A stretch of 63,302 nt of DNA, the filler included, from Dimargaris cristalligena (taxonomy: Eukaryota), in the NCBI GenBank assembly GCA_003614675.1. It is 9 parts of 9 records of this genome, joined end to end, with 100 filler letters (N's around TTAATTAATTAA, not from the genome) between each part and the next. Parts side by side here need not be neighbours in the genome. Positions count along the whole stretch, not along the records: positions 49,391 to 56,301 come from ML003471.1; 8 more parts are not named here. One strand, written 5' to 3'. Positions 5,509 through 59,647 of the stretch are shown piece by piece. How positions within the stretch are numbered: the stretch's first letter is position 1; the number at the start of each line of letters is the position of its first letter. The notes under the pieces were generated by a model. It was given only the letters and a program-made list of their open reading frames with translations, was not told where the DNA came from and did no database searches. The translations under genes and the position numbers were made by a program.

Positions 5509-5732
5509 TATTGAAGAATATGTTCCTACGTGTTCTTTATTCTATCCTATTTTTACCCAATTACATTAGTTTACTCTGCTATCATGAGATCATTCATATT
5601 AGCTAATTATATTTCACTCTACAGAAATTATAACTCAATAAAACTAACCACCTAGAGGTACCTACCGTCCTCTAGCTGCTTTCTTCCCTTACTTCCAGTT
5701 TTATTTCCTTTAAGTCCTTAGTATTCCAACAC
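5509..5732 (+). mobile_element. Solo LTR-like repeat; second copy truncated at about 63205-63302
   Basis: T(A/G)TTGAAGAATATGTTCCT start shared with 63205; ends TTCCAACA; internal AATAAA. Confidence 0.65.
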
Positions 5733-6460
5733 ATAGTACCAGGGGTGACCATGGGGGGGGGGGTTCAATATGGTACTATAAGGCCTGATATAGCAGATGA
5801 TCATCCAGTCAGATTAGGTCGGATTAGGAGGGCCGATAAGGGGAAGAGGGGATGGCAAAGTAAATAGTGGCAACAATAAAGAGACAGGGTAAATCTTCAA
5901 CTTTCTCTCTCCTTTTCTCTCACTAAAGCAGTGAGAAACAGGCTTAACCATGTTTATCTGTTCATAGTGGAACATTCCATATTACAGTTATCCTACTGGC
6001 CGAAGTAGACTGATTTGCAGAATATGGGCAAGAGGGGTGAAGCTTCTAGACAATAGCAAAAAATTGTCTACTTCATAACCCAAGAATTGTCACAAGAGTC
6101 GAGATGTAAGTCTCTGTATTATCAACTTGAACGGTGGCGGCCAGGTGGTCATCATGCAATTGGCAGAGGTGGAAGGACGGGACGGCATTCCCAAAACATA
6201 TTTCACTTAAATCTCTCTACACTACTGCAATAGAGAACAGCAGCCTGAATAGTAGGGAAGCTAGTGAGACAGTTTTTTTAAAACTGCCCATATAATGAAT
6301 GACGGCCACCTATACTCCCTTTACAGAAAAGTATAAATACCACTTGGCAGCCCGCTCTTCTGGTAGCAGTATCCACTCATCCGCACTTCATCCAAAGCAG
6401 TTCATTACAACTCATCTCATTCTATGTTTTCCACTTACCCGAATTCCCACCATATCCACC

Positions 6461-6982: not shown

Positions 6983-7082
6983 NNNNNNNNNNNNNNNNNN
7001 NNNNNNNNNNNNNNNNNNNNNNNNNNTTAATTAATTAANNNNNNNNNNNNNNNNNNNNNNNNNNNNNNNNNNNNNNNNNNNN
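6983..7082. other. Artificial contig-joining spacer (N44-TTAATTAATTAA-N44); identical spacers at 14065-14164, 21143-21242, 28201-28300, 35240-35339, 42279-42378, 49291-49390, 56302-56401
   Basis: Identical 100-nt N blocks with a six-frame stop linker. Contig lengths never increase (6982, 6982, 6978, 6958, 6939, 6939, 6912, 6911, 6901), consistent with size-sorted unlinked contigs. Confidence 0.98.
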
Positions 7083-14064: not shown

Positions 14065-14164
14065 NNNNNNNNNNNNNNNNNNNNNNNNNNNNNNNNNNNN
14101 NNNNNNNNTTAATTAATTAANNNNNNNNNNNNNNNNNNNNNNNNNNNNNNNNNNNNNNNNNNNN

Positions 14165-20609: not shown

Positions 20610-22817
20610 AATAGATAAGTTTTTTATAAAAGAATATTTATTTAGAAATAAGTGTGGTATAATTAGTAATATATGACTAGTTTATTTTCTTGGTGGATTG
20701 CTCCTTGAACTGGGGAGTAAAATAGGCAGGTTTTTATACCTGAATTACAAGACTAAGATGGAGTAATTGTAACAGGCACTGAATAGTTGTTGATAATGAT
20801 TTCTCCCATCTTGACCATTCTCCTTTAACACCTTATGCTCATAGCTTAGAAAATACCATCTTCTCTCATGGTTTCAGAGATAGTGGCTAGCTCTAGACTA
20901 TGAGTTCAGTGTTAGTGCTCATTTTAGTTTTAAAAGGGATATATATAGTAACAATCTGGGTTTTGGTAGATCCAATAAAGGAATTGATAGGAATAAGCTT
21001 TCCTTAAACCTGCACTATGCAGCAGTACACTTATATATTATGGGTGTAAAGAACTGAACGCAAATCCTTGAAAACTGAACTTTATTTGAAAAGATAGATA
21101 ATAAAAGGGAAAGGTGATGATAGACTTGCTGTTCCAAGAGGTNNNNNNNNNNNNNNNNNNNNNNNNNNNNNNNNNNNNNNNNNNNNTTAATTAATTAANN
21201 NNNNNNNNNNNNNNNNNNNNNNNNNNNNNNNNNNNNNNNNNNGGTGGGAATTAGTAAGAGATTTTAAAGTACTAGAAGGGTAGTTTAATTAAAAAAATAC
21301 AGTTTCTATACACTAGCTGCAAGATTATATATAAAAGAAAGTTTAAGTTTATTATAATTTGATTCAGTATAGGAATAGTCCTTTAATAAGTAGTAGAAAG
21401 TATTGAAAAATAGTAAAAATTAGTTAAAGAAAGCCAATTTTTTACTAGTCCAGTTGCTAGACATCAATTTACATAGTACACTTTTTTTTTTGGCTTTCCC
21501 GAGTCATTATTCATAGATTTATTATAGGTCTTATGATTGATCACAGGGTCGGGGATCATTTTTCCCCCATTTTTTAAAAAAGTCCCATCGATCTACCTAT
21601 TTCCCGTTTCGATAAAAAAAATAGTCCCGCTACATCAATTGGAACTTTCATTCAAATTGTAATGGTTTGGGTCGAGTGGGACCTATGGATTAACCGAGTT
21701 TCCAAAGAAGGAAGGATTTGACAAAATAACAAGGTGCTGAGTTGGGCGGGAAAAGTTCTAAAGAGTTATTTATTGATTATTAAATCGAAACTTAAGGAGT
21801 CAAGATTATGCTGTGTCTATTCGTTATATACTACTCGGTTGGTTGTCTACTGGCTTGGGCGGCTGCTGTTCACCACTTGCCCGGTGGAGGTGGATGTAAG
21901 GGGAGGGACGGGTTGGACGATTTCATTGGCCGGATGTCCTAGTCGCTCTATAGTTGGGTGTTCCGCCTCACCTGGCGGTTGCAAAATCATTATATAGCTT
22001 GATTGAACTTCTCCCATATGTTTAAAAAACGAATTCTTTGATTGACAATCCTCATCCCACCCACCCAATGAACTATCTAGGATGCCTAGCCAATAAAACA
22101 ATTCAATTAAGCATTCCCATTTGAACCCCCTAACTCTAGTCTACAGGCTGACAACATAACCGAAATATAGCAGGAACTGGGCATGCACTGACCACCACCT
22201 TCCCTAATGGTATACAGCCAGTACTACCACTCAACAATTTTATATTCGGTTAAATACAGTTGAAAATTTAGTCCAGTCCTGTCCATTTTATTAGGGTGTT
22301 CCGGATGCAGCAGGTATACAATTTCTGATGGCTAATCATTTCAGATTGAGTCCAAAAAGATAATGTATAAGAAAGCTTGGACAACTGTTCCCTTTTATCA
22401 TTAATGGCATACCAATAAAATTCAACCTTCACCTCCTATTTTACTATTAACTTCCAATTGGGTTTTTCATATTCATTCCTAAGAGCTAGTAGTACTAATA
22501 GTATGCATTATGTGAAATGAATCACCCTGGCCCTTCATTACTGGAAATAGTAGCTGATGTATACATTGTAATGTAATTGTTATTTACTGACCCCCAATAC
22601 TGAATAACATGGTTGCTGATCATATTTACCGTGATTTTGGGTTAAAACTTGGTCTTATCCTTGAGGCATACCAGATTCAAAACTGTTTGAACTTTAAACC
22701 TCCAAAATCTTGGACTATACACTTACACATTAGGGCAGAATAAGAGGGAAACAGTGGTCAATCATCTAGTCTGTGGGTACACTAAACCATTGTGTGCAAA
22801 TTCATCCAGTTTAGTAC

Positions 22818-24099: not shown

Positions 24100-25503
24100 T
24101 TATTTGGCGCCGCCAAAGTATTTTTTCCAGAATGGGACCTGAGACTCGGAAGTTGAGTCGGGATTTGGACCCGTTTGATTCTCCTCATCGAGCGGACGGG
24201 CCTTGCTACCGAACCAACGTTGATAAAACGATCTGTTGTCTTTACTAGAAATCGTTCCTTCGTCTTTGGTTTCCTCATTCTTACTGACCGATTGGCTATG
24301 TGGCTCAACATCAGCAAAGTCGTCATACAAAGTGTCTAAACTTGCCGACTTGAGGGATCTGCCGGGAGCGGCCATTTCAGATTTCCCGGGGATCTCCATA
24401 CTCCCTTGGGTATCCAGGGCCTCGTTATCATACTCAGAATCGTGGTTCATACCGGTACTACTATCCAATTGGGGGTGGTACTGGGCCATCAAAGGTTTAC
24501 GGTCTCTACTGTAAGTGCCAATGGGTGGCTTGAACTCTGCATCGGTAGCCGATAGATCGTAGTTCTCCTCAGCCCCATGGGTCAATTTTTCCCCATTGGG
24601 ACTGCCATCAATTTGATTCTTCGGACCCAACTGGTCCAGCGATAGGAGTGGGTGAGATGAGGGCTCACTTCCGAACCCGGAATAGGGCGTCAGGTTGCCA
24701 GAGTCATTTGCTTTGGAGATATTCAGCTCGCCATCAGAGTGTTGGGAATGATAATCGCCGGTGGGGTCAAAAGGAGGGGGATTGGATCCCCCTGAGGTCG
24801 TATTGTTGTCTGCCTCAAGGGCATTTTCACCATAGTTGGCTTGGTCAGTAAACGACTGGCTCATCGATTGGGGTGGCTTAAATGGGGGTGGTATCGCGGA
24901 TATGACGTAGGGGGTCTTGTCTTCAGGGCCAAATTGCATGAAGTTGTCAAGGTTAGAAGGAAGGGGATTGGATCCCCCTGAGGTCGTATTGTTGTCTGCC
25001 TCAAGGGCATTTTCACCATAGTTGGCTTTAGAAGTAAAAGGCGGGTAACCAGACCCTGGTTGATTGGAGGTGAGATAAGGCGGAAACTGCTGGTAATTAT
25101 AATTTGGGTATACATAGTTAGGCTGGCTAGATCCACCATAAGGCATGGACATCCCAATAAAGTTACTGTTGGATCCCTGGTCCTGAGTTAGGGGCGGGTT
25201 GTCATAGCCGTAGCCATTTTCCGCATTCTGCTGCGGGTCCCATGAACTACTAATTGACTTTTGCTGCTGGAGCTTCTTGTCTGGATCCGAAAAGCCGGCT
25301 TGGTTTTCAGTCAAGTACTCGGGCTCGGTGTAGCCATCGTAGGCATTACCACTGCCTAGGTAAGTGAGTGGGTTTACATCACTGTACGTGGAGAGGTTGG
25401 GATAACGCCGACTATTGCTTCCAATTATATCCGTATACGAGGGAGCGGCGTGGGTGGACGTGGCTGCTAGAGCAAGCATGGATAGGGACAACTGAACCTT
25501 CAT
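24100..25503 (-). CDS. Secreted low-complexity Ser/Asn/Pro/Gly-rich protein with internal 22-aa duplication
   Basis: Signal peptide MKVQLSLSMLALAATSTHA-AP from ATG 25503, long open frame, exact 66-bp duplication. Confidence 0.75.
   Translation of the reverse strand: MKVQLSLSMLALAATSTHAAPSYTDIIGSNSRRYPNLSTYSDVNPLTYLGSGNAYDGYTEPEYLTENQAGFSDPDKKLQQQKSISSSWDPQQNAENGYGYDNPPLTQDQGSNSNFIGMSMPYGGSSQPNYVYPNYNYQQFPPYLTSNQPGSGYPPFTSKANYGENALEADNNTTSGGSNPLPSNLDNFMQFGPEDKTPYVISAIPPPFKPPQSMSQSFTDQANYGENALEADNNTTSGGSNPPPFDPTGDYHSQHSDGELNISKANDSGNLTPYSGFGSEPSSHPLLSLDQLGPKNQIDGSPNGEKLTHGAEENYDLSATDAEFKPPIGTYSRDRKPLMAQYHPQLDSSTGMNHDSEYDNEALDTQGSMEIPGKSEMAAPGRSLKSASLDTLYDDFADVEPHSQSVSKNEETKDEGTISSKDNRSFYQRWFGSKARPLDEENQTGPNPDSTSESQVPFWKKYFGGAK
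24777..25028. repeat. Exact 66-bp intragenic direct repeat (24777-24842 and 24963-25028)
   Basis: Encodes ANYGENALEADNNTTSGGSNP twice, 186 bp apart. Confidence 0.92.
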
Positions 25504-28359
25504 ATTGACTCGGGTCGATATAGATTTCTCACTATAAATATACGCGGTACTAAACAAACGAGTCTGCAGATTGAATCGGTAAATAGTCGGTTAAATAATA
25601 CAGCGGAGTAGGTTTGGCTGGAAGACACTGATAAAAAAATAGGGGCTGAACAGGCCTGAATCTGAAAGGTTGGGGGCGAGATCAAGTGAATGTGAGTGAA
25701 GAAGAGTACTTGAAGTTGCTAGGGAGCAATGGCATATGGCGGAAAAGGGGACACTATTTATAGGCAACGCATATTCGGTCGCTGATAACCATAGGAGGTG
25801 GATTAGAAGGGGCGGCTAAAGGAATTCAATGCAGATGGCAATGGAAGGTTATCCGACCCACATTGCTATACCCTAGCGCTCGAGGTCCTGAGTGGATCCC
25901 CCGTGTATAGAAATAGCCCTAGTAAACGGCAGAAACTTTAATATATGAGAGGGTCCGGGCCATACTTGATAGTGGATTGGGGATGGGCACCTTCAATAGT
26001 TCTCAGCAAGGCATTGGCCGGAAAGTCGGGATAAAGGGAAAGGGCCGGGACGAAAAAATATAAGTCCAACCGCCCTGCAATAAAGGGGGGCGATTAATTA
26101 TTCAAATTACATTTATAGACGGTGGCTTGCAAAGGGAAGGTCGAGTATTCACTGGTGCATAGGCCTCTCTCGCTCTCTCTCGTACTTGATTTCACCAACT
26201 GACTAGGGTCCTTACTCCGGTCGAACCAATCGGCCTGGGTTTACCCGCTTCTAAGAATACATGAGTGCGCACAAGCGACGCAGCACAAGAGAGTAGTATA
26301 AGGAGAGGACTAATACATTTTTATATTGAAAGTAAATCGAATGTGGATGAGAAAAAGGGAGTAAACGTGAAATCATTCCCACTCAATGAACGTCGCCGTC
26401 TACAATGCTTTACTTCAATACAACTCCCCCATTATTAAATTCCGCTTCCCCTCGGCTACTATTTCAACTATAAGCGAAACATTGGTACATGCATCGGCCG
26501 TGGTTGTATCAATTCTTAACACTGTATCGGGAGTGCGGGAACAACTAAGCCATTTCTGGCGCTAGAGGGCCTCGGCCGTTTAAGTTAATTCTTTGGCATA
26601 CTGCTGTACATTTATAATCGGGGTAGAAATAATTGAATGAATACGGCAGGCCGCTCACCCTTGAGATTCCTGAGGTTGGTATGTGACTACCCCATTACAA
26701 TGCCCCATGTCGACCCCAAAATACACTTTTTACACATTCGAGTTCGTTACACATCGACTATAACAATTTATGCCCAGTGATTATATATGCAGTGGCCTCC
26801 TCCCACTCTCTATGGTTAATACTGTCGGATTAACGTATTTTACCTACTCAAATAGTTGAACCAATCTAACAATGGTTGTATCTCCAAAATAAGGTAATCT
26901 TCTTGCCATCAAGATACTTGAGCCTTTACCAATTTCATTAATCCGCCAGTTTAAATATGCCTGCAATACTATCTAGCTATGAGAGGCACCAATACATCCC
27001 CCGCCTCCACATTAAGTTCATATGGCCCCTTACTAAAGTCTACTGCACAAGTCTCGACTTTAGCTGTACAGCAGAAAATTCACTTGAAGATGCTAACAAT
27101 AGGGGTTAGAAGAAATTATCATAAATACATTCTATTCGAACTCGTATACTGTTGAGTTAAACTTCACTCGTATACTACCAGTTGGCCATCTAAACTAAGT
27201 TCGGCCGTGAAAATGCTCGGCTAAAAAACAAGCGTTAAAATAACGACCTATATACAGCCTCATAGCCAATTCGAAAAGACGCAGAGTCTGGATTCCGGCA
27301 ATGGATATAATATGGGAATAAGCAAGGCCCCTTTATCAGTTTAGAAAGAATGACGGGTGGAGTGCCAGTATAAATGCAAATTACAACTACCCACCCCAAA
27401 GCCACCGACTCAGACCCATATAAGTTTGACGAATAACCTATCGGTTATAATGTCATTCATCCCCAGGCACAGTAAATGACATGAATGAAATGAAAAAGAG
27501 TGAACCAAGTCGTGTAACTAAACACAGAAGCACATTAAAGCCCGTAAGATATGGGTGAAATGCGACCCAACTGTATAAGATTTAAATGATATAGGTATGG
27601 GAGAATATGCGGGATATTTATTACCAACCAGTAGTATCTGCCTTATCCAACAGACTCTTTGTTATACAGCCTGGTTGAACTTCTCTCATATTCATCCGTG
27701 TCAAACTGCAATAAAACTCCCCGATATAATGAAATGGCATAAGAAGCCGTGGGAGTGAAATAAATTGGCCAAGTCCTTTTGATAAACACAATTCACAAAG
27801 TATACTTAGGTTAGAGTATAACCACCATCGGTTTTACGACTAGATTCGCATCTATAGCACGATGCGTCGTACAAGTGTGAAGAATGGAAAAGTACAACAA
27901 TAATGGACCTTTGACGGACCAATGGCAGTGGCCCATTTGGTTACACAATAGCTAATGTATAAGATGCCCATTGGTGGTTTCGTGACTGTTGTGATGTGGC
28001 AGAGCGACTTATATAATAACAGGCGTAAATGCCTTATAATCAAAGAAATAATAGAATCAAACCTCAAGAATAATTAGGACAACTGTAGGCAAAACTGCCG
28101 GTACAGTTCAGAAGAATGAAAAAAAGATGTTTTATTAAGAGTTGCGATTCTTGAAGGTATTTATACTGAGGAAGTGGTTGAAGTCCAACCTACGTGGTAT
28201 NNNNNNNNNNNNNNNNNNNNNNNNNNNNNNNNNNNNNNNNNNNNTTAATTAATTAANNNNNNNNNNNNNNNNNNNNNNNNNNNNNNNNNNNNNNNNNNNN
28301 TTCATACCTTATATATAAATATAATAATCAAATAGTAATAATTCATACCTATGGCAATC

Positions 28360-34690: not shown

Positions 34691-35499
34691 ACTGGAAAGC
34701 AGGGAGGAGTAGGAAGAAGTCAGCCCATTAAGCCAGATCCATCGGTATATAAAATCCGCCTAGCCCACCCACCTAAAATATAGTATCATCCCAACATATG
34801 TACTACCCGGGGCGTCCGGCCTATTGCCAGCGGCCTTCGGAATTCGCATAGAGGCAACGGCCTCTTTATCAACCTGGCCAGAAGTTGCAGCGGCCAGCTC
34901 CCTGGTGGTAGAAGACGGGAGGTTCGCGGAGTTGGAGGAGACAGGGGCGGAGTTGGGCATCGTCATGGCGGGATAACGGAGGGATGGGTAATCAATGGAA
35001 CAAAACGGAGAACGGGGGATATGAACAAGGTATAAGGTTTATTGGGATATAAAAAACAGTGGTGTCCGTTAATAGTAAATCAATAAGAGGTTGCGGTAAT
35101 ATCTGAGGAATAAGCGAAAAATTCGAAATAAACGAGTGGCAATGCCTTTTCTTTCTCTTCCCCCCCCCAATTGGGCGGGAATTTGTTGGTTACTTATGTA
35201 ACCAGTTAGTGGGCCTTAGAGGCCGCTAAGTGCAAAAAANNNNNNNNNNNNNNNNNNNNNNNNNNNNNNNNNNNNNNNNNNNNTTAATTAATTAANNNNN
35301 NNNNNNNNNNNNNNNNNNNNNNNNNNNNNNNNNNNNNNNTATTCATCTATCTTTTCATTTAGTCTTCCCCTTTTGAGTATAAATACTCCCCCTTGCTGCC
35401 ACCTCTTGGAACAGCAAGTCTACCATTACCTTTCCTTTCTTATTATCTAGTTTTTCAAATAAAGTTCAGTTTTTAATTATTTGATTTCAGTTTTTTACA

Positions 35500-37360: not shown

Positions 37361-39525
37361 TTAGATGGGCAGTTCAAACTTAACCTGGATGTTGGCCTTC
37401 TTCGCCAACTTCACAATCTTAGAGAGCTGCACAGCCTTACGCGCGGCTTCATCCAGATCGTCGCAGGCAATGATACGAAGATTGGACGAAGCAATCAGCT
37501 TCTTGGCCTCTTCCACGTTGGTACCCTGCAGGCGGACCACCAAAGGAATGTTCAGGCTAAGCTGGTTCACGGCGGTGATGATACCTTCGGCAATGACATC
37601 GCAGCGCATGATACCGCCAAAAATGTTAACCAGGATAGCGGACACGTGGGAGTCGGAGCTGATGATCTTGAAGGCTTCGGTAACCTGCTGGGCGGTGGCA
37701 CTGCCGCCGACGTCGAGGAAATTAGCGGGTTCACCGCCGTTGAGCTTGATGATGTCCATGGTGGACATGGCTAGACCGGCACCGTTGACCAGGCAACCGA
37801 TGTCACCGTCCAGACCAATGTAGTTGAGCTTAAATTCGTGGGCCTTCACTTCGCGGGGATCCTCCTGGGTAACGTCACGAAGTCCGAAAATGTCGGGTTG
37901 GCGGAAATCGGCATTGTCATCGAAGCCAAACTTGGCGTCCATGCACAAGACTTCGTGCTGGGCGGATTCAGCCATGGGGTTAATTTCCACCATGGTGGCG
38001 TCCTTGGCCACGAACAGCTTGTACAGGTTCAGCATGCTGTCGGCGGCGTCTTCCACGCACTGCTTGCTGAAGCCGATTTGTTCGGCCAGACGGACGGCAT
38101 CGGCCCGCTGGAGGCCCTTCTGGAGATCGACGGGCAGCTTGTGGATGGCCTCGGGGTTTTCGGCAGCGACGCTTTCGATATCCACACCACCCTGGGAGCT
38201 GGCCACGACCACGGGGCCCTGGGTAGCCCGGTCCATCAAGATGGCGAAGTAGAACTCCCGGCGGACGTACTTGCGTTCAACGACGTAGACCTAATGTCAC
38301 GGATAGGATGGCGCAGTCAAAAATGACAATTGGTGAATTTCGGTGAAATCAGATAGGCCAGAGGGGTAGGTAATAATAGCGTCAAAGTAAAAGGCGTTGT
38401 TAGTGGCTACTCCTAGGCAACGGATGTAAAAAAATAGTTGCCTGATTGGATGCCGCTGAATGGTCAAGTCATCGGGTCCGATGAATCAGCCCAGAGCCAA
38501 TAGAGAAAGGTTATATTCTCTCCACCGGTGAGTTGCCGATAGGGCCAACGGATTATATAAGGTTCGCCCAATGGGCGGCGGTATTCTATACCTCTCATAT
38601 TTCAAGCAGCCCGCACAAATAGGAAGGGGGATTGGTTTTACTTACCGCATTGCACACTTTACCAGCGGCGCCGGTTTGCTTCGTAACCAGAGTGTGGCCC
38701 AGCATCTTTTCGGCGAAGCTCTTGGCTTCATTGGGCGAGTAAATGGTGCGCACACCACCCTTGAGGCCATTATCGAAGGTGCCCTTACCCCGACCACCGG
38801 CCAGAACCTGGGCCTTGATCACCATGTCGTCGGTACCAAGCTTGAGGGCGGCTTGGTAGGCCTCCTCGGGGGTCTTGGCCACCTCACCACGGGGGGTCTT
38901 GATGCCGTACTTGTTCAGCAGACCCATCGACAGATATTCATGGATCGAGAGGTGACGCTTACCAATGGCAGCGGCGGGAGTCTATATATGTAAAGTGCCG
39001 AAACGTATATGCAGAGGGGGAAACAGGGTAGAGAGAATACAGTAAGGGGTCAGGTTCCGGGAATATACACCACAAGGGTGATTGGGAGTCATAGCCAAGA
39101 GCTGCGAAGCTGGTGATAAGGAAGGAGTGCACTGGTGACTAGCATAGCAGGGCGAAAAACGGCTTGTTATCTTATCTCGCATTATATCTCTCCTGCTTGA
39201 CATACCAGAATAGCCAAGGCCAGAGGGGCATCACCAACTTCTGCTTAGCCAACAACTCCATGGCCAATTGAAGTTACCGGGATGCTCGACATGCCTCTAA
39301 GCCAGCCAGCTAAAACCGCCGCCCGATCGGACTAAGGAAGTACAGTGCATTACTATGCCCAAACTAAGTACCATGCGCTTTCCCGGGAGGTCTTGGCTAG
39401 AGAGACGGACCTACAGATCCAGGCTTCCCGGGCTTGGCACAGGTAGCAACGCTAAGCATAATTGGCCTTACCTGAAAAGAAATGCGCCCAGTGGTGGGCA
39501 TGGCGAGCCGGGAGAAGCGGAACAT
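37361..39525 (-). CDS. LSC2: Succinyl-CoA ligase beta subunit, mitochondrial; exons 39525-39472, 38981-38646, 38290-37361 (~439 aa)
   Basis: Motifs [65 protein letters not shown] phase-0 introns and an N-terminal mitochondrial presequence. Confidence 0.95.
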
Positions 39526-41660: not shown

Positions 41661-42479
41661 TCTTTAGTATTAGATATTGGTTCCAAGCAAACTCGATTTG
41701 TTTTTATTTCAAAGGAATAATCAGCAAGGGTGGCATCAAAAGTAACCATTATTTTCGATTGAGAATTCCATATTTATTTGGTTTACTTTATAAGTAAATG
41801 ATTACACAATCATCATTGCGTTTCATTAATCCCACTACTGCTCTGTCTGTTCGTTAGAGACGACAATACCATTGCCAAATTCCCTGGCCTAATCCCCTAA
41901 GTATGAGTTGTTTGGACTGCACTCCCAGGCAGGTTCCGGTCTGCTCCCTCCTGACCAGACGTTGCTGAATCCCCCTAACCCCCCAAGCCCCATCATGACA
42001 ACCATCGGTTGAAATGGTTTATAGATGCTGCTGATGCTTAGTTATTTATTAGTACTATTTATTACACTCAATGGACAGGTCTGTAGTATACAATCACTAA
42101 AAATCTACCATGTATATAGGCAAATAACACGATTCAATGCATTTTGATAGTAAAAATAAAAGATGCCTATATAAAATCGGTTGGAAGAACGGAATATCAA
42201 AAAGAGAAAGATAAGAACCATATGGGTGGAATTCAGTGCAGCTGTATAAGGTTTTGAATGATGCACGTATGGGGAAATNNNNNNNNNNNNNNNNNNNNNN
42301 NNNNNNNNNNNNNNNNNNNNNNTTAATTAATTAANNNNNNNNNNNNNNNNNNNNNNNNNNNNNNNNNNNNNNNNNNNNGCAGGGGCTCATTCACTCATCA
42401 GGGGCGTACTTCCGATAAGTGCGAAAAATGGATTAAAAATAAAAGTAGGTTAAAAATGTGGTAAGTTCACCACAGCAAC

Positions 42480-49290: not shown

Positions 49291-49396
49291 NNNNNNNNNN
49301 NNNNNNNNNNNNNNNNNNNNNNNNNNNNNNNNNNTTAATTAATTAANNNNNNNNNNNNNNNNNNNNNNNNNNNNNNNNNNNNNNNNNNNNATTAGT

Positions 49397-51964
49397 ATGA
49401 ATATAGATGATTATTGTCAACAAATTGTATCTAAAGTAATAAAATGCGATGATTATCAGCAGAAAGGTTATGATAAATTAAAATTAAGTTCACCAATATC
49501 AAAAATTGTTGATTATGTAATAAATCTATCAGATTTGGATTTATATTGTAAACAGTTGGTAATTGAAAAATGTGTATGTATTATAGAAGATAAGTATGTT
49601 AAGAATATTATAGATACAATTGATTGAGATAATGATAAGGATGTTAGTTTGAAAAATATTATATTTAAGGATTGTGTTAAAGGATTAAGTGTTGATATTG
49701 ATAGATTGATTAGTTTGTATACAAAGAGTAATAATAAAAAGTTAGTTCAAGAGTTAGATAATTTTACTTCTGGAAACAATTTTGATGAAAATATATATAT
49801 TGTATTATGTATAATGTGTTTGGGTAAATATAAAATTATTAATATTATATATTTGATTATTATAAGATTGTTATCTGAATCACATACGGATAAACATGTT
49901 GTTATTACACGTATTCATGATGCTGTCATTAAAAAAATTAAATATATTAATAATATGGATGAATTGATTGTTAATTCTCGTTTAGATATTTCAAATATTA
50001 GAAGTATTATATTGAGTATGCCTGATATCTCTAAAATACAATTGGGATTAACTTTATATGAATTATCTAGTAAAAATTTAAAATTTATTGGTTCTTATAT
50101 TGTTAAGGAGGATCTTAAAAGTTTATATAAAATTTATATTAAAAGTGAATATATTCAAATTATTCATGATTTTGCTCTAATTCCTATTAAATTACCTATG
50201 ATTTATAAACCAAATATATTTGAAAAAAATAATAATGGTGGATATTTAACATCAAAAATGAATATTATATGTGATTATGAAAGTATTATAAGACAAAATC
50301 ATGCAAATATTTATAAAAGTGAAATCAGTGATATTCAATATGATGCTATTAACTATTTAAATAAACAAAAATTTATTATTAATAGGGATATGTTGGATTA
50401 TGTTGTTAATGAATGGAATAATGATAATAGTTTATTTTTTAATGGTTTAAATAAACTTAAAATTTATACTGACGATGATTATTATAAACAAATTGATATA
50501 CAACAACATAATAGTAAATATTGAATGTATCGTAATATAATTAATATTGCAATTTTATATAAATGTTATAGTATTTATATACCTGTTTATATGGATTTTA
50601 GAGGGAGAATTTATCCTTTATTAAATTATTTAACTTATCAAGGTGTTGACTTGGCAAGATCATTAATTCTTTTTGATGATAATGAAGAAATAAACGATGA
50701 TGGTATATCATATTTATATCAATATTTTGCTAATGTATATGGATTTAATAAGAAATCTATTAAATATAAAATTAAATGAGTTGAAAATAATATAGACAAT
50801 ATTATTGATTTATATAATTATAATAGGTCTAAATTTAATGAAGATATATTATCTAAAGTTAAAGAACCTGCACAATTTATTAGTACATTATTAAGTATAA
50901 TTTCATTACGTGCGGGTAATAAAATTGTTAATATACCTATATTATTTGATGCAACATGTTCAGGTTTACAACATTTATCTGCTTTATGTGTTGATACATC
51001 TTTAGCCAAATTAGTTAATTTAACTGATAATGATGTACCTAATGATTTTTATGAATATGCTGGTAAATTTGTTTATAAACAAATCGAAGATTTGGATGAT
51101 AGTGAATTAAAGAATAAATTTATTAATATTAAAATTGATAGAGAATTTATGAAAAAACCTGTTATGACTAAACCATATAATATAACTATGAATGGTATGG
51201 GTAAATATATAACAGAAAATTTAAATAAAATATATGAACATAATAAATTATATTATCAGATCCCATCTATGTATACAGTCAATGATAAAAGTATTGTTTT
51301 ATCTGGATCTGAAATGGGTCGTTTTATTAGTATTATATATAATTCAATTTATAATATGATACCTCCCATAAAGAATTTAAATAAATATTTAAATGATATG
51401 ATAAATTTGATGTGTAAAATAGATTTATCTATAAATTGAACTACACCTTCAAATATGTTGGTTAGTTTATCAAGTAGAAAATTTAAAACTGTTAAAACTA
51501 ATAGTAAATTATATAAAAGAGGTAAATCTATATCAATTTCGTTACCTCTAAATGAATACAATTTTAATATAATTAAACGTGGTTTTATGCCGAATTTTAT
51601 ACATTCAATGGATGCTGCAAATATACATTTATTAATAAATTTAATACTTAGTGATAAAGATTTGTCGTTATATACTATACACGATTGTTTTGCTAGTACA
51701 CCTAATAATATGGGTAAAATTAATAAGTTTGTTAGAAATACCTTTATAAAATTATATTTCGATAAAAATTATTTAAATATAATGCATAATAACTTTATAG
51801 AACAAATAAAATGTCATTATACTGTATATGATAATGATAATATTAAATATTTTTATATTGATGATGAATTGGTCATTATACCAAATTTACCATCTAGTCC
51901 ATGAGATGACCTTAAAGATGAATTTATTAAGAATATTGCTAATTCTAAATATTTCATATGTTAA
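49397..51964 (+). CDS. rpo: Single-subunit T3/T7-like DNA-directed RNA polymerase, 855 aa (genetic code 4)
   Basis: ORF pieces are all in one frame, separated only by TGA (49625, 50522, 50777, 51437, 51902), ending at TAA 51962-51964. Motifs DFRGRIYP, FDATCSGLQH (A), RxxxKKPVMTKPY (B), PNFIHSMDA, TIHDCF (C), C-terminal SKYFIC. Confidence 0.93.
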
Positions 51965-52020
51965 TCCTCATGAATTTATCTTTTCGTTTCGAATTTTTAT
52001 CTAAACCCTCTCCTTGTATA

Positions 52021-55000
52021 TTAATTTGATTCCATTAATATAGTTATAATACATGCGCACAATCTTAAAGTAATGGTCATACCTGCCGTGATTATAATAA
52101 TTTTATTTGTATCAAACATATTATCATTGTTAATATCATTAGTAATATCATCTTTATCATAATCACTTGTCGTATCTATTGTATTTTCTTTATTCTGTAT
52201 GGGAATATGTTCAGATGGAGTAGATGAAACTTCATTATCTTTAAGTATATTCGAGCTATCATTTGTTAAATCATTTGTTGAATCTATATCATTAGTATCA
52301 TTATTTAAAACTTTAGATTCAAGATGTTCAGTTTTATTAATTAATATATTAATATTTTCAGATAACATATTAACATTTTCACTCAACATTATTAAATTTT
52401 CTAATGTATTCTCGGATATTTTTGATATTTTATCAACCATATTTTCCATATATTTTGAATTTGTTATTGTAGATAATACATTATGTTTTAATTCACTTAT
52501 TTCATTTAATATAACGTTATTTTCATTAGTTAATTTATCTAATTTATTTAAGGCTTCATTAAATTTACGTTTCAAAATAATATCATTTTTAATAGAATTA
52601 TGGTATGTAATTTTCATATAATCAAGATTTTTCCTGATAGCATTAATTTGATGTGAAACATTATTTACATTATTTAAGTCATTTGATATAGAATTAATCT
52701 GTTCTGAAAGACTTTCAATATTATCCAAAATATCATTATCTACATTACCAAAAAGATAATTTTTCATTATGGTTTGTATTAAATTGATAAATATAGTTTT
52801 ATTAATAAAAATAATAAAATTTAATAAATGCGACATAAATTTATATAAATATTTATGTTTATCTTCAGAACTATTATCATCTTCGTTAATATAATCCATT
52901 TCATCATCAGAATCATCATCATATAATTCTATAGTCAAATTGTCATCATTAATAATATCATCTTTAAAAACCATATTATACATAATGATATGTCACATAA
53001 TAAATATAATATAACATAATATTAATGAGATAATAAATATATCTATAAATCTCAATTTGGTATATACAATACTTAACAATCTTGATCATGAAAATTGGGT
53101 TATTTCTTTGTCATCCATTTCATTATCATATGATTGTTCTGGACATAATTTAATTAAATTATGTGTATTTAATGGTGGAGCCAATAATTTATAAGGTATA
53201 GTTTTATATATAAAATTTATTGGTACAGTAAAATTTTCAGTTGACCCAATTATTTCATAATTGTTCTTAGAATTATCTAAATCAGATTTAATTGATTCAT
53301 CAATACCTCTAATCCTAATGTTTCTATTTATTATACTAACATAACCATCTCTATTATTTCTAATAAACATTTGTTTAATTATATCAACAGATTCACCATT
53401 TAAAAGTTTAATAAAATCATTATAAGTTAATCCATTTTTACCAACACCTTTAGCTTTTATAATTTCCATACCATCACCATTATTAATATAATATAATTTT
53501 GGTTTAATAAATATACCCTCCTTAACAAAATATTCTAATTTCATTTGACCCAATTCTTTACCAACATATTTTGATTCTAATGGTTTTTCTAACACCACAG
53601 AATCTGTATCAGAATATATACAATTATTACCACTAATATTTTTAAATTTATTAATAGCTATACGTGCATAACCAGTTATAGCTGCTGCAATTGAAACAGA
53701 TGATTGTAAACTTCTAGATTTATCAAAATTCTCAGAAGATTCTGGTATCAATAATTTACATAATTCTCAATCAATTTTCTTACCAATTTTAACTAAACAT
53801 CTAGTATCACCAGTCATTAATATATCAGTATCATGTATTTTCATAGATGGTTCATTAAGTTGGTCAATACCAATAATTTTTGTATAATCATCAATATTAT
53901 TCTGTCCCATTTTACCATATAACGAATTTAATATAAGTTTTGCAATTAATCTTTGTGCAGAATCATTATTTTCTTCTGCTTCAAGTTTTAATTTATAAAT
54001 TGTATTTACAAATTCATCAAATAACCCAGATACTCTATTAAATTTATAACCACACAAAACATTAATATTATAACCGACACTTCTAGCATATTTCAATTCT
54101 TCACTAAAATATCATCCAGAAAAAGAACCTCTAGGTTGACTAATAGTAGTATCATTATCATTACGATAAGGTAATATAGGAACTTTTAATATATTATCAT
54201 CAGGTGCAGTAATATGAGCATAAACAAACCCAAATATATTATCTAAATTTGTTTCAGTAGTAAAAATAGGTTTACCAGTAGGCATATCATTTAACATAGC
54301 TTTAGGATATTGAGAATTCATATCATAATAATATCCATCATTAATTTTATGTTGTACAACTTGAACTACACCACCATAATAACCTTTTCTAATATCCTTT
54401 TCAACAATACCAGAAATAACAGGAATAGACATATTTTTTTCATTATAAAAATTAGAAAGAAATAATTTCAAACTTAAAGAAGGCAAAGTTTTAGAATCAG
54501 TAATATTAATACCAAATTGATTATGAATTTTCTCACCAAATTTAATAACAACTTGATATAAAGATATCAAATCACGTCTTAAATATTCATATAACTCATC
54601 TTTCAATGATCAATTATTTTTAATACATAAATTATAAGCTTCTTTAGTTACATCATTATTATAATAATTAATATCAGGTGTATTACCAATATAATTCAAA
54701 GTATTTTCATTAACAAATTTATAAGGGAAAATACCTTTAGTAACTTCACAATTAAATGCTTTACATAATGTTTTCAAGTCAGATCTTAAAAACAACAAAC
54801 TGTCCAATATATTAATTGAATAATTTTCTTTACCAATTTTAATATAAATTTTAATAGAAATCAAATCATTATCTTTATATACAGTTTTAAATTTATAATC
54901 AGAATTTAATAAACTTTTAACTATATATCCACCATCAAATCCAGATAAATTATGAATAAAAAAGGTATATTTATTATACATTTTAGAATTAAAAATATTA

Positions 55001-56211
55001 TTAATCATATCAATAATTACATCTTGTTCATTATCAAAATAAAATATTTCAGAACTATCATTAACATAATAACCACATGCATATACCTTTTGTACACCAT
55101 TATTCAATGTAAAAGTTTCTAAATCCATTGTACCAATATGATTATTAAAATCAATAGTTCGACTTAATGTATCAAATGTATTAACTTTATAAATAATATC
55201 ATTTTTAACATATTTACCAATAGTATTAAAATATAATTTATTATTTTCATATATACGTATATAACCATATTTATTCAGAATATCTTTAAAACTCAAAATA
55301 AAATTATTATTTTCATATACATCAACAACATATTTTGATTCAATTATGGTAACTTTCAATAAGAATTCCACACCATCAATAATACATTTATATAAATTAT
55401 TAGAAATTAACACACCATAATTAGAAGGATTAATTCTATACACAACAGAATTTAAATTTTTCAATTTATTAATTCTTTTAATTAATTTTTGTGTATTAGA
55501 CAATTTATTCTCTACAGGATCATTATTATCTTTACTTTTAATAACACTTAAAGCTTTATTATATATATTTTTAAACTCATTTTCTTCAATTCACACTCTA
55601 TAACAGATAATAATATCAAATGTATCAGGGAAATCGTATTGTTGGCTAGATTTAATAATATTCGTATATAATCTCAAATTCAATGCACTAATATTCATAT
55701 CATTATATATAAAAAATCTTTTACTCAATGTAGTAACACGTCTCTCACCATCCTCATCAATACATCTTACCATACACAAAGCACTATATATTTTATCATT
55801 ATCCAATTTATCAATTATATCAGCTAACCCAGGTATTTCTTTAACATAAACACTATAATTCTCTATAACAAATTTATATTTATAACCCTTATAACCCATA
55901 CCAACAGAAGAATTAACATTTTTAAAAGCTCTACGCAAGTTTACATACTTATCATTGATCATTAATGTTGGTACAAACAATAAACTTTGCACATTAAAAT
56001 AATTATTTAATACAAAAAATCGGTCCCATAGAGACAGCCCATTATATATTTCCATTCCCGTTTGAATAAAACATACCTCAGTATGTGATATAATACCAGC
56101 TAATAATATACTACTTAACAAAGGCAGTATTAGCACACCAGCGAATGTCAATATTAGAAATATAATATTTATCGTTATATAGCAAACAAAGTTAATATAT
56201 AAGAAGATCAT
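52021..56211 (-). CDS. dpo: Protein-primed family B DNA polymerase with N-terminal hydrophobic/terminal-protein-like region and fused C-terminal TM-acidic-coiled-coil-TM extension, 1396 aa (genetic code 4)
   Basis: Single frame with only TGA codons (55591, 54610, 54112, 53767, 53086, 52993) until TAA 52021-52023. ExoI TMDLET, ExoII IHNLSGFDG, ExoIII YLRRD, PolA YDMNSQYP, WYFSEEL, PolB KLILNSLYGK, PolC YSDTDS, KAKG. Confidence 0.88.
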
Positions 56212-56252
56212 AGTTTTTATTTTAGTAGGGGGTAAGATATCCCTCTATTAGT
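56212..56252. promoter_or_regulatory. 41-bp divergent intergenic junction with 10-bp imperfect inverted repeat (candidate origin/bidirectional promoter or joined termini)
   Basis: TAGTAGGGGG (56223-56232), 8-nt loop, CCCTCTATTA (56241-56250). Lies between the dpo ATG (56211, -) and the repeated rpo ATG (56253, +). Confidence 0.5.
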
Positions 56253-56296
56253 ATGAATATAGATGATTATTGTCAACAAATTGTATCTAAAGTAAT
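56247..56296 (+). repeat. 50-bp direct repeat of contig start 49391-49440
   Basis: ATTAGTATGAATATAGATGATTATTGTCAACAAATTGTATCTAAAGTAAT is identical at both ends; the last 5 nt of the contig (TTATG) diverge. Confidence 0.95.
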
Positions 56297-56401
56297 TTAT
56301 GNNNNNNNNNNNNNNNNNNNNNNNNNNNNNNNNNNNNNNNNNNNNTTAATTAATTAANNNNNNNNNNNNNNNNNNNNNNNNNNNNNNNNNNNNNNNNNNN
56401 N

Positions 56402-58300: not shown

Positions 58301-59647
58301 ATGCGCGAATGTATCTCGGTCCACGTTGGTCAGGCCGGTGTCCAGATTGGCAACGCCTGCTGGGAGCTGTACTGCCTGGAACACGGCATCCAGCCCGACG
58401 GTCGCCTCCAGGACCCCTCGGCCCCCCACGACAACGCCTACTCCACCTTCTTCTCGGAGACCAGTTCCGGCAAGCGCGTGCCCCGCACCGTCATGGTCGA
58501 CTTGGAACCCTCCGTCATTGACGAAGTCCGTACCGGTACCTACCGCCAGCTGTTCCACCCCGAACAGCTCATCACCGGTAAGGAGGACGCCGCCAACAAC
58601 TACGCCCGTGGTCACTACACCGTGGGTAAGGAAATTGTCGACTCCGTCCTCGACCGCATCCGCAAGATCGCGGATAACTGTGAGGGTCTCCAGGGCTTCC
58701 TGGTCTTCCACTCCTTCGGCGGTGGTACCGGATCCGGTTTCGGCTCCCTGCTCATGGAGCGTCTGTCCGTGGATTACGGCAAGAAGTCTAAGCTGGAGTT
58801 CTCCGTCTATCCCGCTCCTCAGGTGTCTACCTCTGTCGTGGAGCCCTACAACTCCATCCTGACCACCCACACTACCTTGGAGCACTCCAACTGCTCATTC
58901 ATGGTCGATAACGAGGCCATCTATGACATCTGCCGTCGCAACCTCGACATTGAGCGTCCCACCTATGCCAACCTGAACCGCCTCATTGCCCAGATTGTAT
59001 CCTCCATCACCGCCTCCCTGCGCTTCTCCGGTTCCCTGAACGTGGATTTGACCGAGTTCCAGACCAACTTGGTGCCCTACCCCCGTATTCACTTCCCCCT
59101 GGTGACCTACGCCCCCATCATCTCGGCCGAGAAGTCCCTCCACGAACAGCTCAGCGTCAGTGAGATTACCAACGCTTGCTTCGAGCCCAACAACCAGATG
59201 GTCAAGTGCGACCCCCGTCACGGCAAGTACATGGCCTGCTGTCTGCTGTACCGCGGTGACGTGGTGCCTAAAGAGGTCAATGCCGCCGTGGCTGCTGTCA
59301 AGGCCAAGCGCACCGTCCAGTTTGTCGACTGGTGCCCCACTGGTTTCAAGATTGGTATCAACGACGAGCGTCCCACCGTCGTGCCCGGCGGCGACCTCGC
59401 CAAGGTCAATCGCGCCGTCTGTTTATTGTCCAACACCACCGCCATTGCCGAGGCCTGGGCCCGGCTGGACCACAAGTTTGATCTCATGTACGCCAAGCGG
59501 GCCTTCGTCCACTGGTATGTGGGTGAAGGTATGGAGGAAGGTGAATTCTCCGAAGCCCGTGAGGACCTCGCCGCCCTCGAGAAGGACTACGAGGAAGTTG
59601 GTACCGACTCCCCCGCCGACGGAGATCTCGATGAGCTCGAGTATTAA
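58301..59647 (+). CDS. TUB1: Alpha-tubulin, intronless, 448 aa
   Basis: [13 protein letters not shown] start, [23 protein letters not shown]-terminal Tyr; strong C-ending codon bias. Confidence 0.99.

What the first reader, a model, noticed from the sequence alone, without database searches (positions are those of the whole stretch)
52021..56211. Plasmid DNA polymerase fused to a membrane-anchored coiled-coil module (1396-aa ORF)
Seen: with TGA=Trp the polymerase does not end at 53086. It reads through W-SRLLSIVYTKLRFID-IFIISLILCYIIFIMWHII in frame into the 320-aa ORF at 52983-52021, with no TAA/TAG despite the very high AT content. The extension has a TM-like helix, an acidic tract (DDDSDDEMDY), a second hydrophobic stretch, a long heptad-like region (LSEQINSISNDLNNVNN...LSENVNMLSENINILINKTEHLESKV) and a C-terminal hydrophobic anchor (IIIITAGMTITLRLCACIITILM). 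The N-terminus also starts with about 40 hydrophobic residues. Established: fungal mitochondrial plasmid polB proteins normally consist of terminal-protein region + exonuclease + polymerase and end shortly after the KxKG region. Inference: a membrane-tethered replicase or cleaved polyprotein that anchors, partitions or transmits the plasmid, an architecture I do not recognise. The supplied standard-code ORF track hides it by splitting it into six pieces.
Basis: partly seen in the sequence, partly recalled or inferred. Interest (0 to 1): 0.85.

Follow-up and report, generated by a model that had tools for sequence, protein, structure and literature searches.

The report
Membrane-anchored mitochondrial plasmid DNA polymerase
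A small AT-rich mitochondrial plasmid from a zygomycete-grade fungus encodes its DNA polymerase as one long protein that ends in a membrane anchor, an acidic stretch, a coiled coil and a second anchor, which suggests the plasmid copies itself while fastened to the mitochondrial inner membrane.

Summary
Under the mitochondrial code, 52021-56211(-) is one 1396-codon frame. TGA is Trp here: it supplies 11 of 13 Trp codons, and W534 aligns to a column that is Trp in 95 of 111 homologs. The tail is coding: 0 of 20000 shuffles stay open and its codon usage matches the core.

Two corrections. The window is nine unrelated ~6.9-kb contigs joined by spacers, and the element is its own 6911-bp contig. 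The architecture is also not unique. A TM helix about 160-190 aa after motif C occurs in 13 of 112 protein homologs and 9 of 74 DNA loci, and it is usually followed by an acidic stretch (10 of 12).

The query's anchor aligns specifically with that of relative L041, whose protein stops exactly where the query's last 320 aa begin. Those 320 aa have no detectable relative anywhere.

Best reading: an inherited inner-membrane anchor on a protein-primed replicase, with a fused, lineage-specific exported coiled-coil module. It would work like phage phi29 p1/p16.7.

Read support and structure prediction could not be done. I rate it a new variant of a known kind, of moderate interest.

The parts
49391..56301 (.). 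Separate 6911-bp plasmid contig (GC 21.6%), flanked by artificial 100-nt join spacers at 49291-49390 and 56302-56401
   Evidence: GC profile
49397..51964 (+). T7-like single-subunit RNA polymerase gene, 855 aa, 5 in-frame TGA=Trp, convergent with polB
   Evidence: PF00940 219.8 bits
52021..56211 (-). 1396-codon polB ORF (table 4), TAA stop at 52021-52023
56089..56211 (-). aa 1-41: uncharged hydrophobic N-terminus (KD peak 2.67). Not conserved in relatives, and the start codon is not verified
53287..55914 (-). aa 100-975: region alignable with 112 homologs (terminal-protein region, exonuclease, polymerase). ExoI DLET363, ExoII HNLSGFD420, motif A DMNSQYP630, motif B KLILNSLYG758, motif C YSDTDS866
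   Evidence: PF03175 at aa 411-853, 341.9 bits
53053..53286 (-). aa 976-1053: linker with weak similarity to the tails of the closest relatives. Contains TGA W1042 (53086-53088), where the standard-code ORF ends
52984..53052 (-). aa 1054-1076: TM helix (KD 2.73), 191 aa after motif C. Contains TGA W1073 (52993-52995). Aligns with the C-terminal TM of L041
52864..52983 (-). aa 1077-1116: acidic tract (16 D/E, 1 K/R). Begins with M1077, the start of the standard-code 320-aa ORF
52303..52755 (-). aa 1153-1303: heptad-periodic, coiled-coil-like region
   Evidence: 37 windows against shuffle mean 1.0; 0 of 500 shuffles
52111..52302 (-). aa 1304-1367: N/D/S/T-rich acidic low-complexity segment (17 D/E, 3 K/R)
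52033..52110 (-). aa 1368-1393: C-terminal hydrophobic anchor (KD 2.24), with 3 residues after it
49391..49440 (+). First 50 nt of the contig, repeated directly at 56247-56296
56247..56296 (+). Second copy of the 50-nt direct end repeat. The contig's last 5 nt differ from the expected continuation
56222..56251 (+). 11-bp GC-rich hairpin in the 41 nt between the polB start and the repeated RNAP start
   Evidence: -13.7 kcal/mol, z -3.2, 2 of 200 shuffles

Best explanation
The contig is a polB + T7-like-RNAP mitochondrial plasmid of the fungal 'invertron' kind. It sits in an assembly whose nuclear contigs belong to a Dimargaritales fungus.

Its polymerase gene is truly one 1396-codon frame. Residues ~100-975 are the usual terminal-protein/exonuclease/polymerase body, which works in the matrix. 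After a ~80-aa linker comes a TM helix (1054-1076) that the plasmid inherited: relatives carry one at the same distance from motif C, and the L041 helix aligns specifically with it. This helix fastens the replicase to the inner membrane.

The flank before the helix is basic and the sequence after it is strongly acidic (net -30 over 320 aa). By the positive-inside rule for Oxa1-type insertion, the polymerase would stay in the matrix and the tail would be exported towards the intermembrane space.

The last 320 aa (acidic tract, ~150-aa coiled coil, low-complexity acidic segment, second TM) are a lineage-specific addition. It is fused exactly where a relative's protein stops, and was probably once a downstream ORF or a read-through. 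It most likely oligomerises and fixes the anchored replicase, and so the protein-linked plasmid DNA, at membrane sites. Phage phi29 does the same job with the separate membrane proteins p1 and p16.7.

Shown: the frame, the code, coding character, positions of the segments, recurrence in relatives, and orphan status of the tail. Inferred: membrane insertion, topology, oligomerisation, and the role in replication or segregation.
For: Frame and code. TGA:TGG is 6:1 in polB and 5:1 in RNAP. The W534 column is W in 95 of 111 homologs and the W700 column in 54 of 112.

Coding character of the tail: (0 of 20000 shuffles open; codon cosine 0.91-0.94 against about 0.6).

Plasmid identity: PF03175 and PF00940. 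Convergent gene order matches relatives; an RNAP was found in 24 of 160 fetched loci.

Recurrence of the anchor: 13 of 112 homologs and 9 of 74 scored loci, with the TM 158-191 aa after motif C in 8 of the 9 (query 191).

Inheritance of the anchor: the query TM region against the L041 tail gives z 6.5, 0 of 500 shuffles. The TM tails of L032 and P0010 score at background, so this is not composition alone. L041 ends 1 aa after the position matching query Y1078.

Charge asymmetry: the query's upstream flank is +2 and the next 40 aa are -15. Ten of 12 homologs with at least 40 aa after the TM have net charge of -3 or lower there, against 164 of 972 background windows.

Topology rule: passages of PMC11452304.

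Coiled coil.

Functional precedent in protein-primed replication: passages of PMC4974454 on p1 and p16.7 anchoring TP-DNA to the membrane.

Sequence reproducibility: five runs from three samples and two studies hold 0.98-0.99 of 717 sampled words, but these may be the source data.
Against: No RNA or protein evidence shows that the fusion product exists. M1077 directly after the TM would allow separate initiation.

The 320-aa tail has no relative (0 hits in 1.84 billion representatives; none in 160 loci). Conservation therefore cannot vouch for function.

A long coiled coil after the TM is rare among relatives: 1 of 12 homologs by my metric, plus L008 with 7 windows.

Only 7 of 12 homologs have a net positive upstream flank.

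TM calls rest on a Kyte-Doolittle window, not a trained predictor.

Export of a ~300-aa hydrophilic domain from the matrix would be unusually large for Oxa1-type export. This point rests on my own knowledge, not on a call.

The 12 other TM tails lie in a different clade from the query, so a common origin of all anchors is not shown.

The contig lacks the terminal inverted repeats expected of an invertron.
Confidence: 0.5

Rival explanations
1. Two products from one frame. The polymerase with its C-terminal TM anchor is the functional replicase, and the 320-aa acidic coiled-coil membrane protein is made mainly on its own from M1077 (internal initiation or a processed transcript). The uninterrupted frame would then be a by-product of extreme compaction, and any fusion protein would be minor or cleaved.
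For: The standard-code ORF starts at M1077, immediately after the TM. The relatives L041, L032, L049/L052 and P0010 stop 2-19 aa after their TM. L032 has a separate downstream ORF encoding a TM + acidic + TM protein. The plasmid is 98% coding, with intergenic gaps of 56 and 41 nt.
Against: No TAA/TAG lies between the TM and M1077, and TGA is read as Trp in this element. Ribosomes translating polB must therefore continue into the tail. No promoter, processing site or RNA data are at hand.
Confidence: 0.25
2. Tolerated read-through tail. A stop codon after the anchor was lost, for instance by a TAA-to-TGA type change, and the polymerase now carries a fast-evolving, largely functionless low-complexity tail.
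For: The tail has no homolog at all. Its composition is typical of AT-rich sequence: N 16.6%, I 14.1%, D 10.9%. Tails in this family vary freely between close relatives: P0079 and P0080 are 89% identical, with tails of 352 and 142 aa.
Against: 355 codons free of TAA/TAG where 31 stops are expected (0 of 20000 shuffles) argues for selection on the open frame. So do codon usage like the core, ordered segments (a TM, a 150-aa heptad run with 0 of 500 shuffles, a terminal TM), and an acidic post-TM tract shared with 10 of 12 relatives.
Confidence: 0.12
3. Assembly or sequencing artefact. A missed indel or a chimeric join near 53090-52980 falsely puts two ORFs in one frame.
For: Read-level support could not be obtained. 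The sequence is AT-rich and low in complexity. The contig's own ends are odd (a 50-nt direct repeat, with the last 5 nt deviating).
Against: The joining stretch encodes a TM helix that aligns with a relative's TM in this very frame. Five runs from three samples hold 98-99% of the sampled 31-mers, though these are possibly the source data. Chance openness of the 35 linking codons is about 5% by my arithmetic from the stop rate.
Confidence: 0.05

Closest known systems
Fungal mitochondrial polB/RNAP plasmids (invertrons), e.g. the Podospora anserina plasmid polymerase DPOM_PODAS (P0076) and unnamed metagenomic relatives
   Same: A PF03175 protein-primed family-B polymerase with an N-terminal terminal-protein region. 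A convergent T7-like RNAP. AT-rich sequence with TGA=Trp. Size of 6-12 kb.
   Different: Best identity is only 36-42%. Most relatives end about 130-140 aa after motif C, whereas the query runs on for 529 aa. Relatives show inverted terminal matches (11 of 18 whole contigs), while the query shows a 50-nt direct end repeat and no TIR.
TM-tailed polB relatives: P0027 (Leptogium hirsutum record), P0060, P0024, P0111 and others, and loci L041, L032, L049/L052, L005, L008, L023
   Same: A TM helix about 160-190 aa after motif C, usually followed by an acidic stretch. P0060 also has a long heptad tail and the same total length of 1396 aa. The L041 TM aligns with the query's.
   Different: There is no detectable sequence similarity beyond the TM. 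Twelve of the 13 lie in another clade. None has a second, C-terminal anchor like aa 1368-1393.
Phage phi29 membrane proteins p1 and p16.7
   Same: Membrane-associated proteins that bind the terminal protein and are proposed to anchor protein-primed replication to the membrane (PMC4974454, passages read). That p16.7 has an N-terminal TM plus a coiled coil is my recollection, not from a call.
   Different: They are separate small proteins, not fused to the polymerase. They are bacterial. No sequence relation was found (Pfam scan), so this is an analogy only.
Physarum polycephalum mF mitochondrial plasmid
   Same: A linear mitochondrial plasmid with polB, RNAP and further ORFs that have TM features (ORFs 3 and 8). 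The plasmid is linked to mitochondrial fusion (PMC10048350, passages and reference titles read).
   Different: The membrane ORFs are separate genes, the plasmid is larger, and no sequence comparison was made here.

Membership tests
Organellar/viral protein-primed family-B DNA polymerase (Pfam PF03175, DNA_pol_B_2) | Profile match above the curated cut-off | tested here: met
   341.9 bits against a cut-off of 25.8, aa 411-853
Organellar/viral protein-primed family-B DNA polymerase (Pfam PF03175, DNA_pol_B_2) | Exonuclease motifs and polymerase motifs A, B and C (DTDS) | tested here: met
   DLET363, HNLSGFD420, DMNSQYP630, KLILNSLYG758, YSDTDS866. These fall at invariant columns of alignment A1. 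The motif names are recalled.
Organellar/viral protein-primed family-B DNA polymerase (Pfam PF03175, DNA_pol_B_2) | Protein priming by an N-terminal terminal-protein domain | not testable with these tools
   The N-terminal ~400 aa align with relatives from about aa 100, but no Pfam family matches them.
Linear mitochondrial plasmid (invertron) | polB together with a T7-like RNAP on a small AT-rich replicon read with the mitochondrial code | tested here: met
Linear mitochondrial plasmid (invertron) | Terminal inverted repeats | tested here: not met
   No TIR in the contig. There is a 50-nt direct end repeat instead. The true ends may be missing from the assembly.
Linear mitochondrial plasmid (invertron) | Protein covalently bound to the 5' ends; location in mitochondria | not testable with these tools
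   Only the code (TGA=Trp) points to mitochondria.
phi29 p1 / p16.7-type replication anchors | Sequence relation to p1 or p16.7 | tested here: not met
   A Pfam scan of aa 1018-1396 gives only sub-threshold coiled-coil noise, and there were 0 hits in the representative search. No direct pairwise comparison with p1 or p16.7 was made.
phi29 p1 / p16.7-type replication anchors | A membrane segment plus a coiled coil associated with a protein-primed replicase | tested here: met
   TM at 1054-1076 and a heptad region at 1153-1303 in the same polypeptide as the polymerase. This is likeness of design only.
TM-tailed subgroup of plasmid polB (defined here) | A TM helix 150-200 aa after motif C, followed by a net acidic segment | tested here: met
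   Query: TM at +191 and net -15 in the next 40 aa. The same holds in 10 of 12 homologs with post-TM sequence.

The most novel reading that the evidence does not exclude
The exported part of the protein is a plasmid-encoded membrane tether or fusogen. An inner-membrane anchor, an acidic stalk, a ~150-aa coiled coil and a second terminal anchor would bridge two membranes, either inner to inner or inner to outer. This would promote contact or fusion between mitochondria, so that a selfish plasmid physically tied to that protein spreads to plasmid-free mitochondria. It would offer a molecular explanation for plasmid-promoted mitochondrial fusion of the kind reported for the Physarum mF plasmid. 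More broadly, TM-acidic tails on about a tenth of plasmid polymerases would mark an unrecognised class of membrane-bound, export-anchored replicases.
Probability: 0.1. Interest if true: 0.85.

Novelty: new variant of a known kind. Interest (0 to 1): 0.5.

Why it matters
How mitochondrial plasmids are kept, partitioned and spread is poorly understood, because they usually encode nothing beyond two polymerases. A replicase that carries its own membrane anchor and an exported coiled-coil module would give them a built-in way to be positioned and inherited. It would also extend to organelles the membrane-anchored, protein-primed replication known from phage phi29.

The recurrence of a TM-plus-acidic tail in roughly a tenth of relatives turns this into a testable class rather than a single oddity. 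I found it described in no paper in five full-text searches.

The case also shows that standard-code gene calls cut these proteins short. The conserved Trp about 119 aa after motif C is often a TGA.

Tried and rejected
- Whole genome of the window: none is held.
- Earlier notes of this scan: none.
The junction, the contig topology and the diverged copy therefore remain unchecked.
- No RNA holder is listed among the runs.
Structure prediction, Foldseek and complex prediction of that tail were therefore left out.
- Atlas on the tail of homolog P0060: best score 0.83, which is chance level.
- Pfam on the tail and on the N-terminal 411 aa: nothing above cut-off.
- phmmer of aa 1030-1396 against 1.84 billion representatives: 0 hits.
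- blastp of the tail against 116 homologs: best E 0.38.
- tblastn of the tail against 160 loci: nothing at E<=1.
- tRNA and Rfam scans of the window: 0 hits each.
- Rejected idea: that the element is inserted next to the tubulin gene. It is a contig join.
- Rejected idea: that coiled coils are general in TM-tailed relatives. Only 1 of 12 passes my threshold.
- Rejected idea: the second hydrophobic stretch as a TM.
- First census by motif regex (64 of 81 loci scored, 8 with a TM). It missed L032 and L041 and was replaced by the alignment-anchored census.
- Tree: FastTree only. The four weakest hits, P0117-P0120, were left out.
- Supplementary files of papers were not consulted.
Full report
**1. 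What the window is**

The 63,302-base window is not one molecule. Eight 100-nt blocks of the form N44-TTAATTAATTAA-N44 split it into nine pieces of 6,901-6,982 bp in descending length order, that is, contigs of a draft assembly strung together. The piece at 49391-56301 (6,911 bp) has 21.6% GC, and the other eight have 41-45% (profiles).

The other pieces carry ordinary nuclear genes read with the standard code. One is an intronless alpha-tubulin at 58301-59644. Another is a succinyl-CoA-ligase-type exon at 37364-38239. The tubulin is 97% identical to the Dimargaris cristalligena protein, 93% to two Dispira species and 90% to Tieghemiomyces. So the assembly comes from a fungus of the order Dimargaritales.

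No tRNA gene and no Rfam family was found anywhere in the window. No whole genome is held for it, and no earlier notes of this scan exist.

**2. The observation**

Under table 4 the minus strand of 52021-56211 is one ORF of 1,396 codons ending in TAA, with six in-frame TGA codons.

TGA is Trp in this element:
- polB has 6 TGA and 1 TGG, and the RNAP gene has 5 and 1.
- In an alignment with 112 homologs, W534 falls in a column that is Trp in 95 of 111 occupied rows, and W700 in a column that is Trp in 54 of 112.

The part beyond the first joining TGA (codons 1042-1396) is coding, not a chance opening:
- None of 20,000 shuffles lacked TAA/TAG (mean 31 stops).
- The longest off-frame open run in the whole contig is 72 codons.
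- Its codon frequencies resemble those of the core (cosine 0.913) and of RNAP (0.936), not those of shifted frames (about 0.60).
- GC falls from codon position 1 to 3, as in the core.

The described segments are there:
- An uncharged hydrophobic N-terminus, aa 1-41.
- A TM-grade helix, aa 1054-1076.
- An acidic tract, aa 1077-1116 (16 D/E, 1 K/R).
- A heptad-periodic region, aa 1153-1303 (37 windows above threshold against 1.0 in shuffles; 0 of 500 shuffles reach it; 0 windows in the 941-window polymerase core).
- An acidic low-complexity stretch, aa 1304-1367.
- A terminal hydrophobic anchor, aa 1368-1393.

The 'second hydrophobic stretch' (aa 1117-1141) does not reach a Kyte-Doolittle (KD) hydropathy mean of 1.5, so I do not count it as a TM.

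**3. What the element is**

The ORF matches PF03175 (organellar/viral family-B polymerase; 341.9 bits; aa 411-853) and has the exonuclease and polymerase motifs, including YSDTDS at 866. The convergent gene at 49397-51964 is a T7-like RNA polymerase (PF00940, 219.8 bits). Together the two genes fill 98% of the contig, with 56 nt between their stops.

The 116 database relatives are all PF03175 proteins. The best is 36-40% identical (42% over the trimmed columns). The named ones are fungal: Synchytrium, Termitomyces, Russula, Leptogium, Coniothyrium, Trametes, Podospora and Amanita. This is therefore a mitochondrial polB/RNAP plasmid of the fungal invertron kind. Its own protein is not in the 5.8-billion-protein collection.

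**4. Where homology ends and what relatives do there**

Alignment occupancy drops from 0.76 (aa 951-975) to 0.02 after aa 975.

Among 113 aligned rows (the query plus 112 homologs; the four weakest hits were left out):
- 90 end about 100-180 aa after motif C.
- 9 have long tails without a TM.
- 14, the query included, have a TM-grade helix in the tail.

I then read 81 fetched DNA loci uniformly with only TAA/TAG as stops, anchoring each on a tblastn match around motif C. Of these, 77 had an anchor hit and 3 lacked DTDS, which leaves 74 scored loci:
- 62 short tails without a TM.
- 5 with a TM at the very C-terminus (L001, L032, L041, L049, L052).
- 4 with a TM plus a further 55-202 aa (L005, L008, L010, L023).
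- 3 long tails without a TM.

In 8 of the 9 TM-bearing loci the helix starts 158-191 aa after motif C. In the query it starts at 191.

After the helix the sequence is acidic. Of the 12 homologs with at least 40 aa beyond it, 10 have a net charge of -3 or lower in the next 40 aa, against 164 of 972 background windows. The query has -15. The upstream flank is net positive in 7 of the 12, and +2 in the query.

A long coiled coil is not general. Only P0060 among the 12, and locus L008, pass my threshold.

On a FastTree of 771 core columns, 12 of the 13 TM-tailed homologs fall in one clade of 41 rows (support 100). The query lies in another clade of 20 rows (support 99), together with P0010, which ends in a TM.

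Tail state flips between close relatives. P0079 (tail 352) and P0080 (tail 142) are 89% identical up to the end of the core.

**5. Origin of the query's tail**

The loci closest to the query's core are L031, L039, L025, L032, L028, L041 and L049/L052. Several of these polymerases end in a TM a few residues before the stop.

The query's TM region (aa 1040-1080) aligns with the end of the L041 protein: score 56 against a shuffle mean of 27, z 6.5, 0 of 500 shuffles. The TM tails of L032 and P0010 score at background, so hydrophobic composition alone does not explain the match. The L041 protein stops one residue after the position matching query Y1078. M1077, the start of the standard-code 320-aa ORF, sits exactly there.

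In L032 a separate ORF downstream of the anchored polymerase encodes a TM + acidic + TM protein.

The last 320 aa of the query have no relative:
- 0 hits at E<=0.001 among 1.84 billion representative proteins.
- Best E 0.38 against the 116 homologs.
- Nothing at E<=1 in 160 loci translated with code 4.
- Only sub-threshold coiled-coil noise in Pfam.

I conclude that the anchor is inherited. The acidic/coiled-coil/second-anchor module is a lineage-specific continuation fused at the old protein end, either a captured downstream ORF or an extended read-through.

**6. How it most likely works (inference)**

The polymerase must act on DNA in the matrix. For proteins inserted from the matrix side by Oxa1-type insertases, the insertase's charge preference and the membrane potential set a positive-inside topology (PMC11452304, passages read).

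A basic flank before the helix and a strongly acidic sequence after it (56 D/E against 26 K/R over 320 aa) therefore predict polymerase-in, tail-out. The coiled coil would oligomerise, and the terminal anchor would re-enter a membrane. The result would be a replicase fixed at membrane sites. Because the terminal protein is made as the N-terminal part of the same ORF, the plasmid's DNA ends would be fixed there too.

Phage phi29, the model of protein-primed replication, achieves this with separate membrane proteins. TP binds the membrane-associated p1 and the membrane protein p16.7, and both are proposed to anchor replication to the membrane (PMC4974454, passages read).

The hydrophobic N-terminus might add a third anchor. 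It is not conserved (occupancy 0.16-0.27 over aa 1-100), and the true start codon is unknown.

**7. Rivals**

- (a) Separate translation of the 320-aa protein from M1077. This fits the gene boundary seen in relatives. But ribosomes on polB have no stop to obey, so a fusion product is expected as well.
- (b) A functionless read-through tail. This fits the orphan status and the variability of tails, but not the 355 stop-free codons or the ordered segments.
- (c) An assembly error. This is unlikely, because the joining stretch encodes the conserved TM in this frame, and five runs from three samples hold 98-99% of the sampled words. Those runs may be the source data, and the junction was not checked at read level.

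**8. Known or new?**

Seven full-text searches were run. Five paired these plasmids with transmembrane, membrane, anchor or C-terminal-extension terms. They returned 5, 4, 0, 1 and 1 papers, none of which, by title and abstract, is about a membrane segment on a plasmid polymerase. I read passages of two of those papers. The Oxytricha paper uses TM prediction for nad2. The Physarum paper notes TM features in separate mF-plasmid ORFs 3 and 8.

Older subscription-journal papers on kalilo, maranhar, pAL2-1 and similar plasmids are not in the library, and supplements were closed. A passing mention elsewhere therefore cannot be excluded.

The architecture class does exist in public sequence data. 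Of the 13 TM-tailed homologs, one is a named record (Leptogium hirsutum, P0027) and 12 are unnamed metagenome or run assemblies. I therefore rate the finding a new variant of a known kind. The TM-plus-acidic tail is a recurrent but undescribed feature. This plasmid's 320-aa coiled-coil module with a second anchor is so far unique.

**9. Unresolved**

The contig has no terminal inverted repeat. Instead, its first 50 nt recur directly at 56247-56296, after which 5 deviating bases end the contig. It is the only one of the nine contigs with such a repeat. By contrast, 11 of 18 whole-contig relatives have inverted matches of 58-139 nt at or near their ends.

Either this plasmid is circular or concatemeric, with a unit of 6,856 bp and 41 nt between the two start codons that hold an 11-bp GC-rich hairpin, or its real ends are missing.

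Structure prediction of the tail was not done (see Tried and rejected).

Noticed in passing
window 6983-7082, 14065-14164, 21143-21242, 28201-28300, 35240-35339, 42279-42378, 49291-49390, 56302-56401: Eight artificial spacers (N44-TTAATTAATTAA-N44) join nine unrelated contigs of 6.9-7.0 kb, sorted by length. Adjacency across them means nothing.
   Followed up: yes
window 49391-49440 and 56247-56296: The plasmid contig has a 50-nt direct end repeat and no terminal inverted repeat, unlike 11 of 18 relatives. It may be circular or concatemeric, or it may lack its true ends.
   Followed up: partly
window 56222-56251 (+): An 11-bp GC-rich hairpin (-13.7 kcal/mol, z -3.2) lies in the 41 nt between the polB start and the repeated RNAP start. 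It is the only GC-rich spot in the element and may be a promoter or processing signal.
   Followed up: partly
window 58301-59644 (+): An intronless alpha-tubulin, 97% identical to that of Dimargaris cristalligena, places the assembly in Dimargaritales. These fungi are mycoparasites (recalled), so whether the plasmid belongs to the parasite or to a fungal host is open.
   Followed up: partly
window 52199-52621 (+): A 140-aa ORF lies antisense to the coiled-coil region. That antisense frame has only 5 TAA/TAG over the tail. It is probably a by-product of the biased codon use of the sense strand.
   Followed up: no
loci L002, L004, L007, L011, L018, L024, L081 and others: The conserved Trp about 119 aa after motif C (in the W-x-DTKP stretch) is often encoded by TGA. 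Standard-code gene calls would therefore cut these polymerases short of their true ends.
   Followed up: partly
L032 about 5726-6304 (+): Downstream of a TM-ended polymerase lies a separate 193-codon ORF encoding TM + E-rich acidic stretch + TM. It may be a free-standing counterpart of the fused module.
   Followed up: partly
proteins P0006, P0007, P0008: The query's nearest protein relatives share a different, TM-less C-terminal extension of about 290 aa that is conserved among the three. Its function is unknown.
   Followed up: no
window 24103-25557 (-): A 485-aa ORF with a signal-like N-terminus and internal repeats (the '...ANYGENALEADNNTTSGGSNP...' stretch occurs twice) and no Pfam family. 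It looks like a repetitive secreted protein on a nuclear contig.
   Followed up: no
run X6: A run labelled as a different organism holds 45% of the plasmid's sampled 31-mers, which hints at a diverged copy elsewhere.
   Followed up: no
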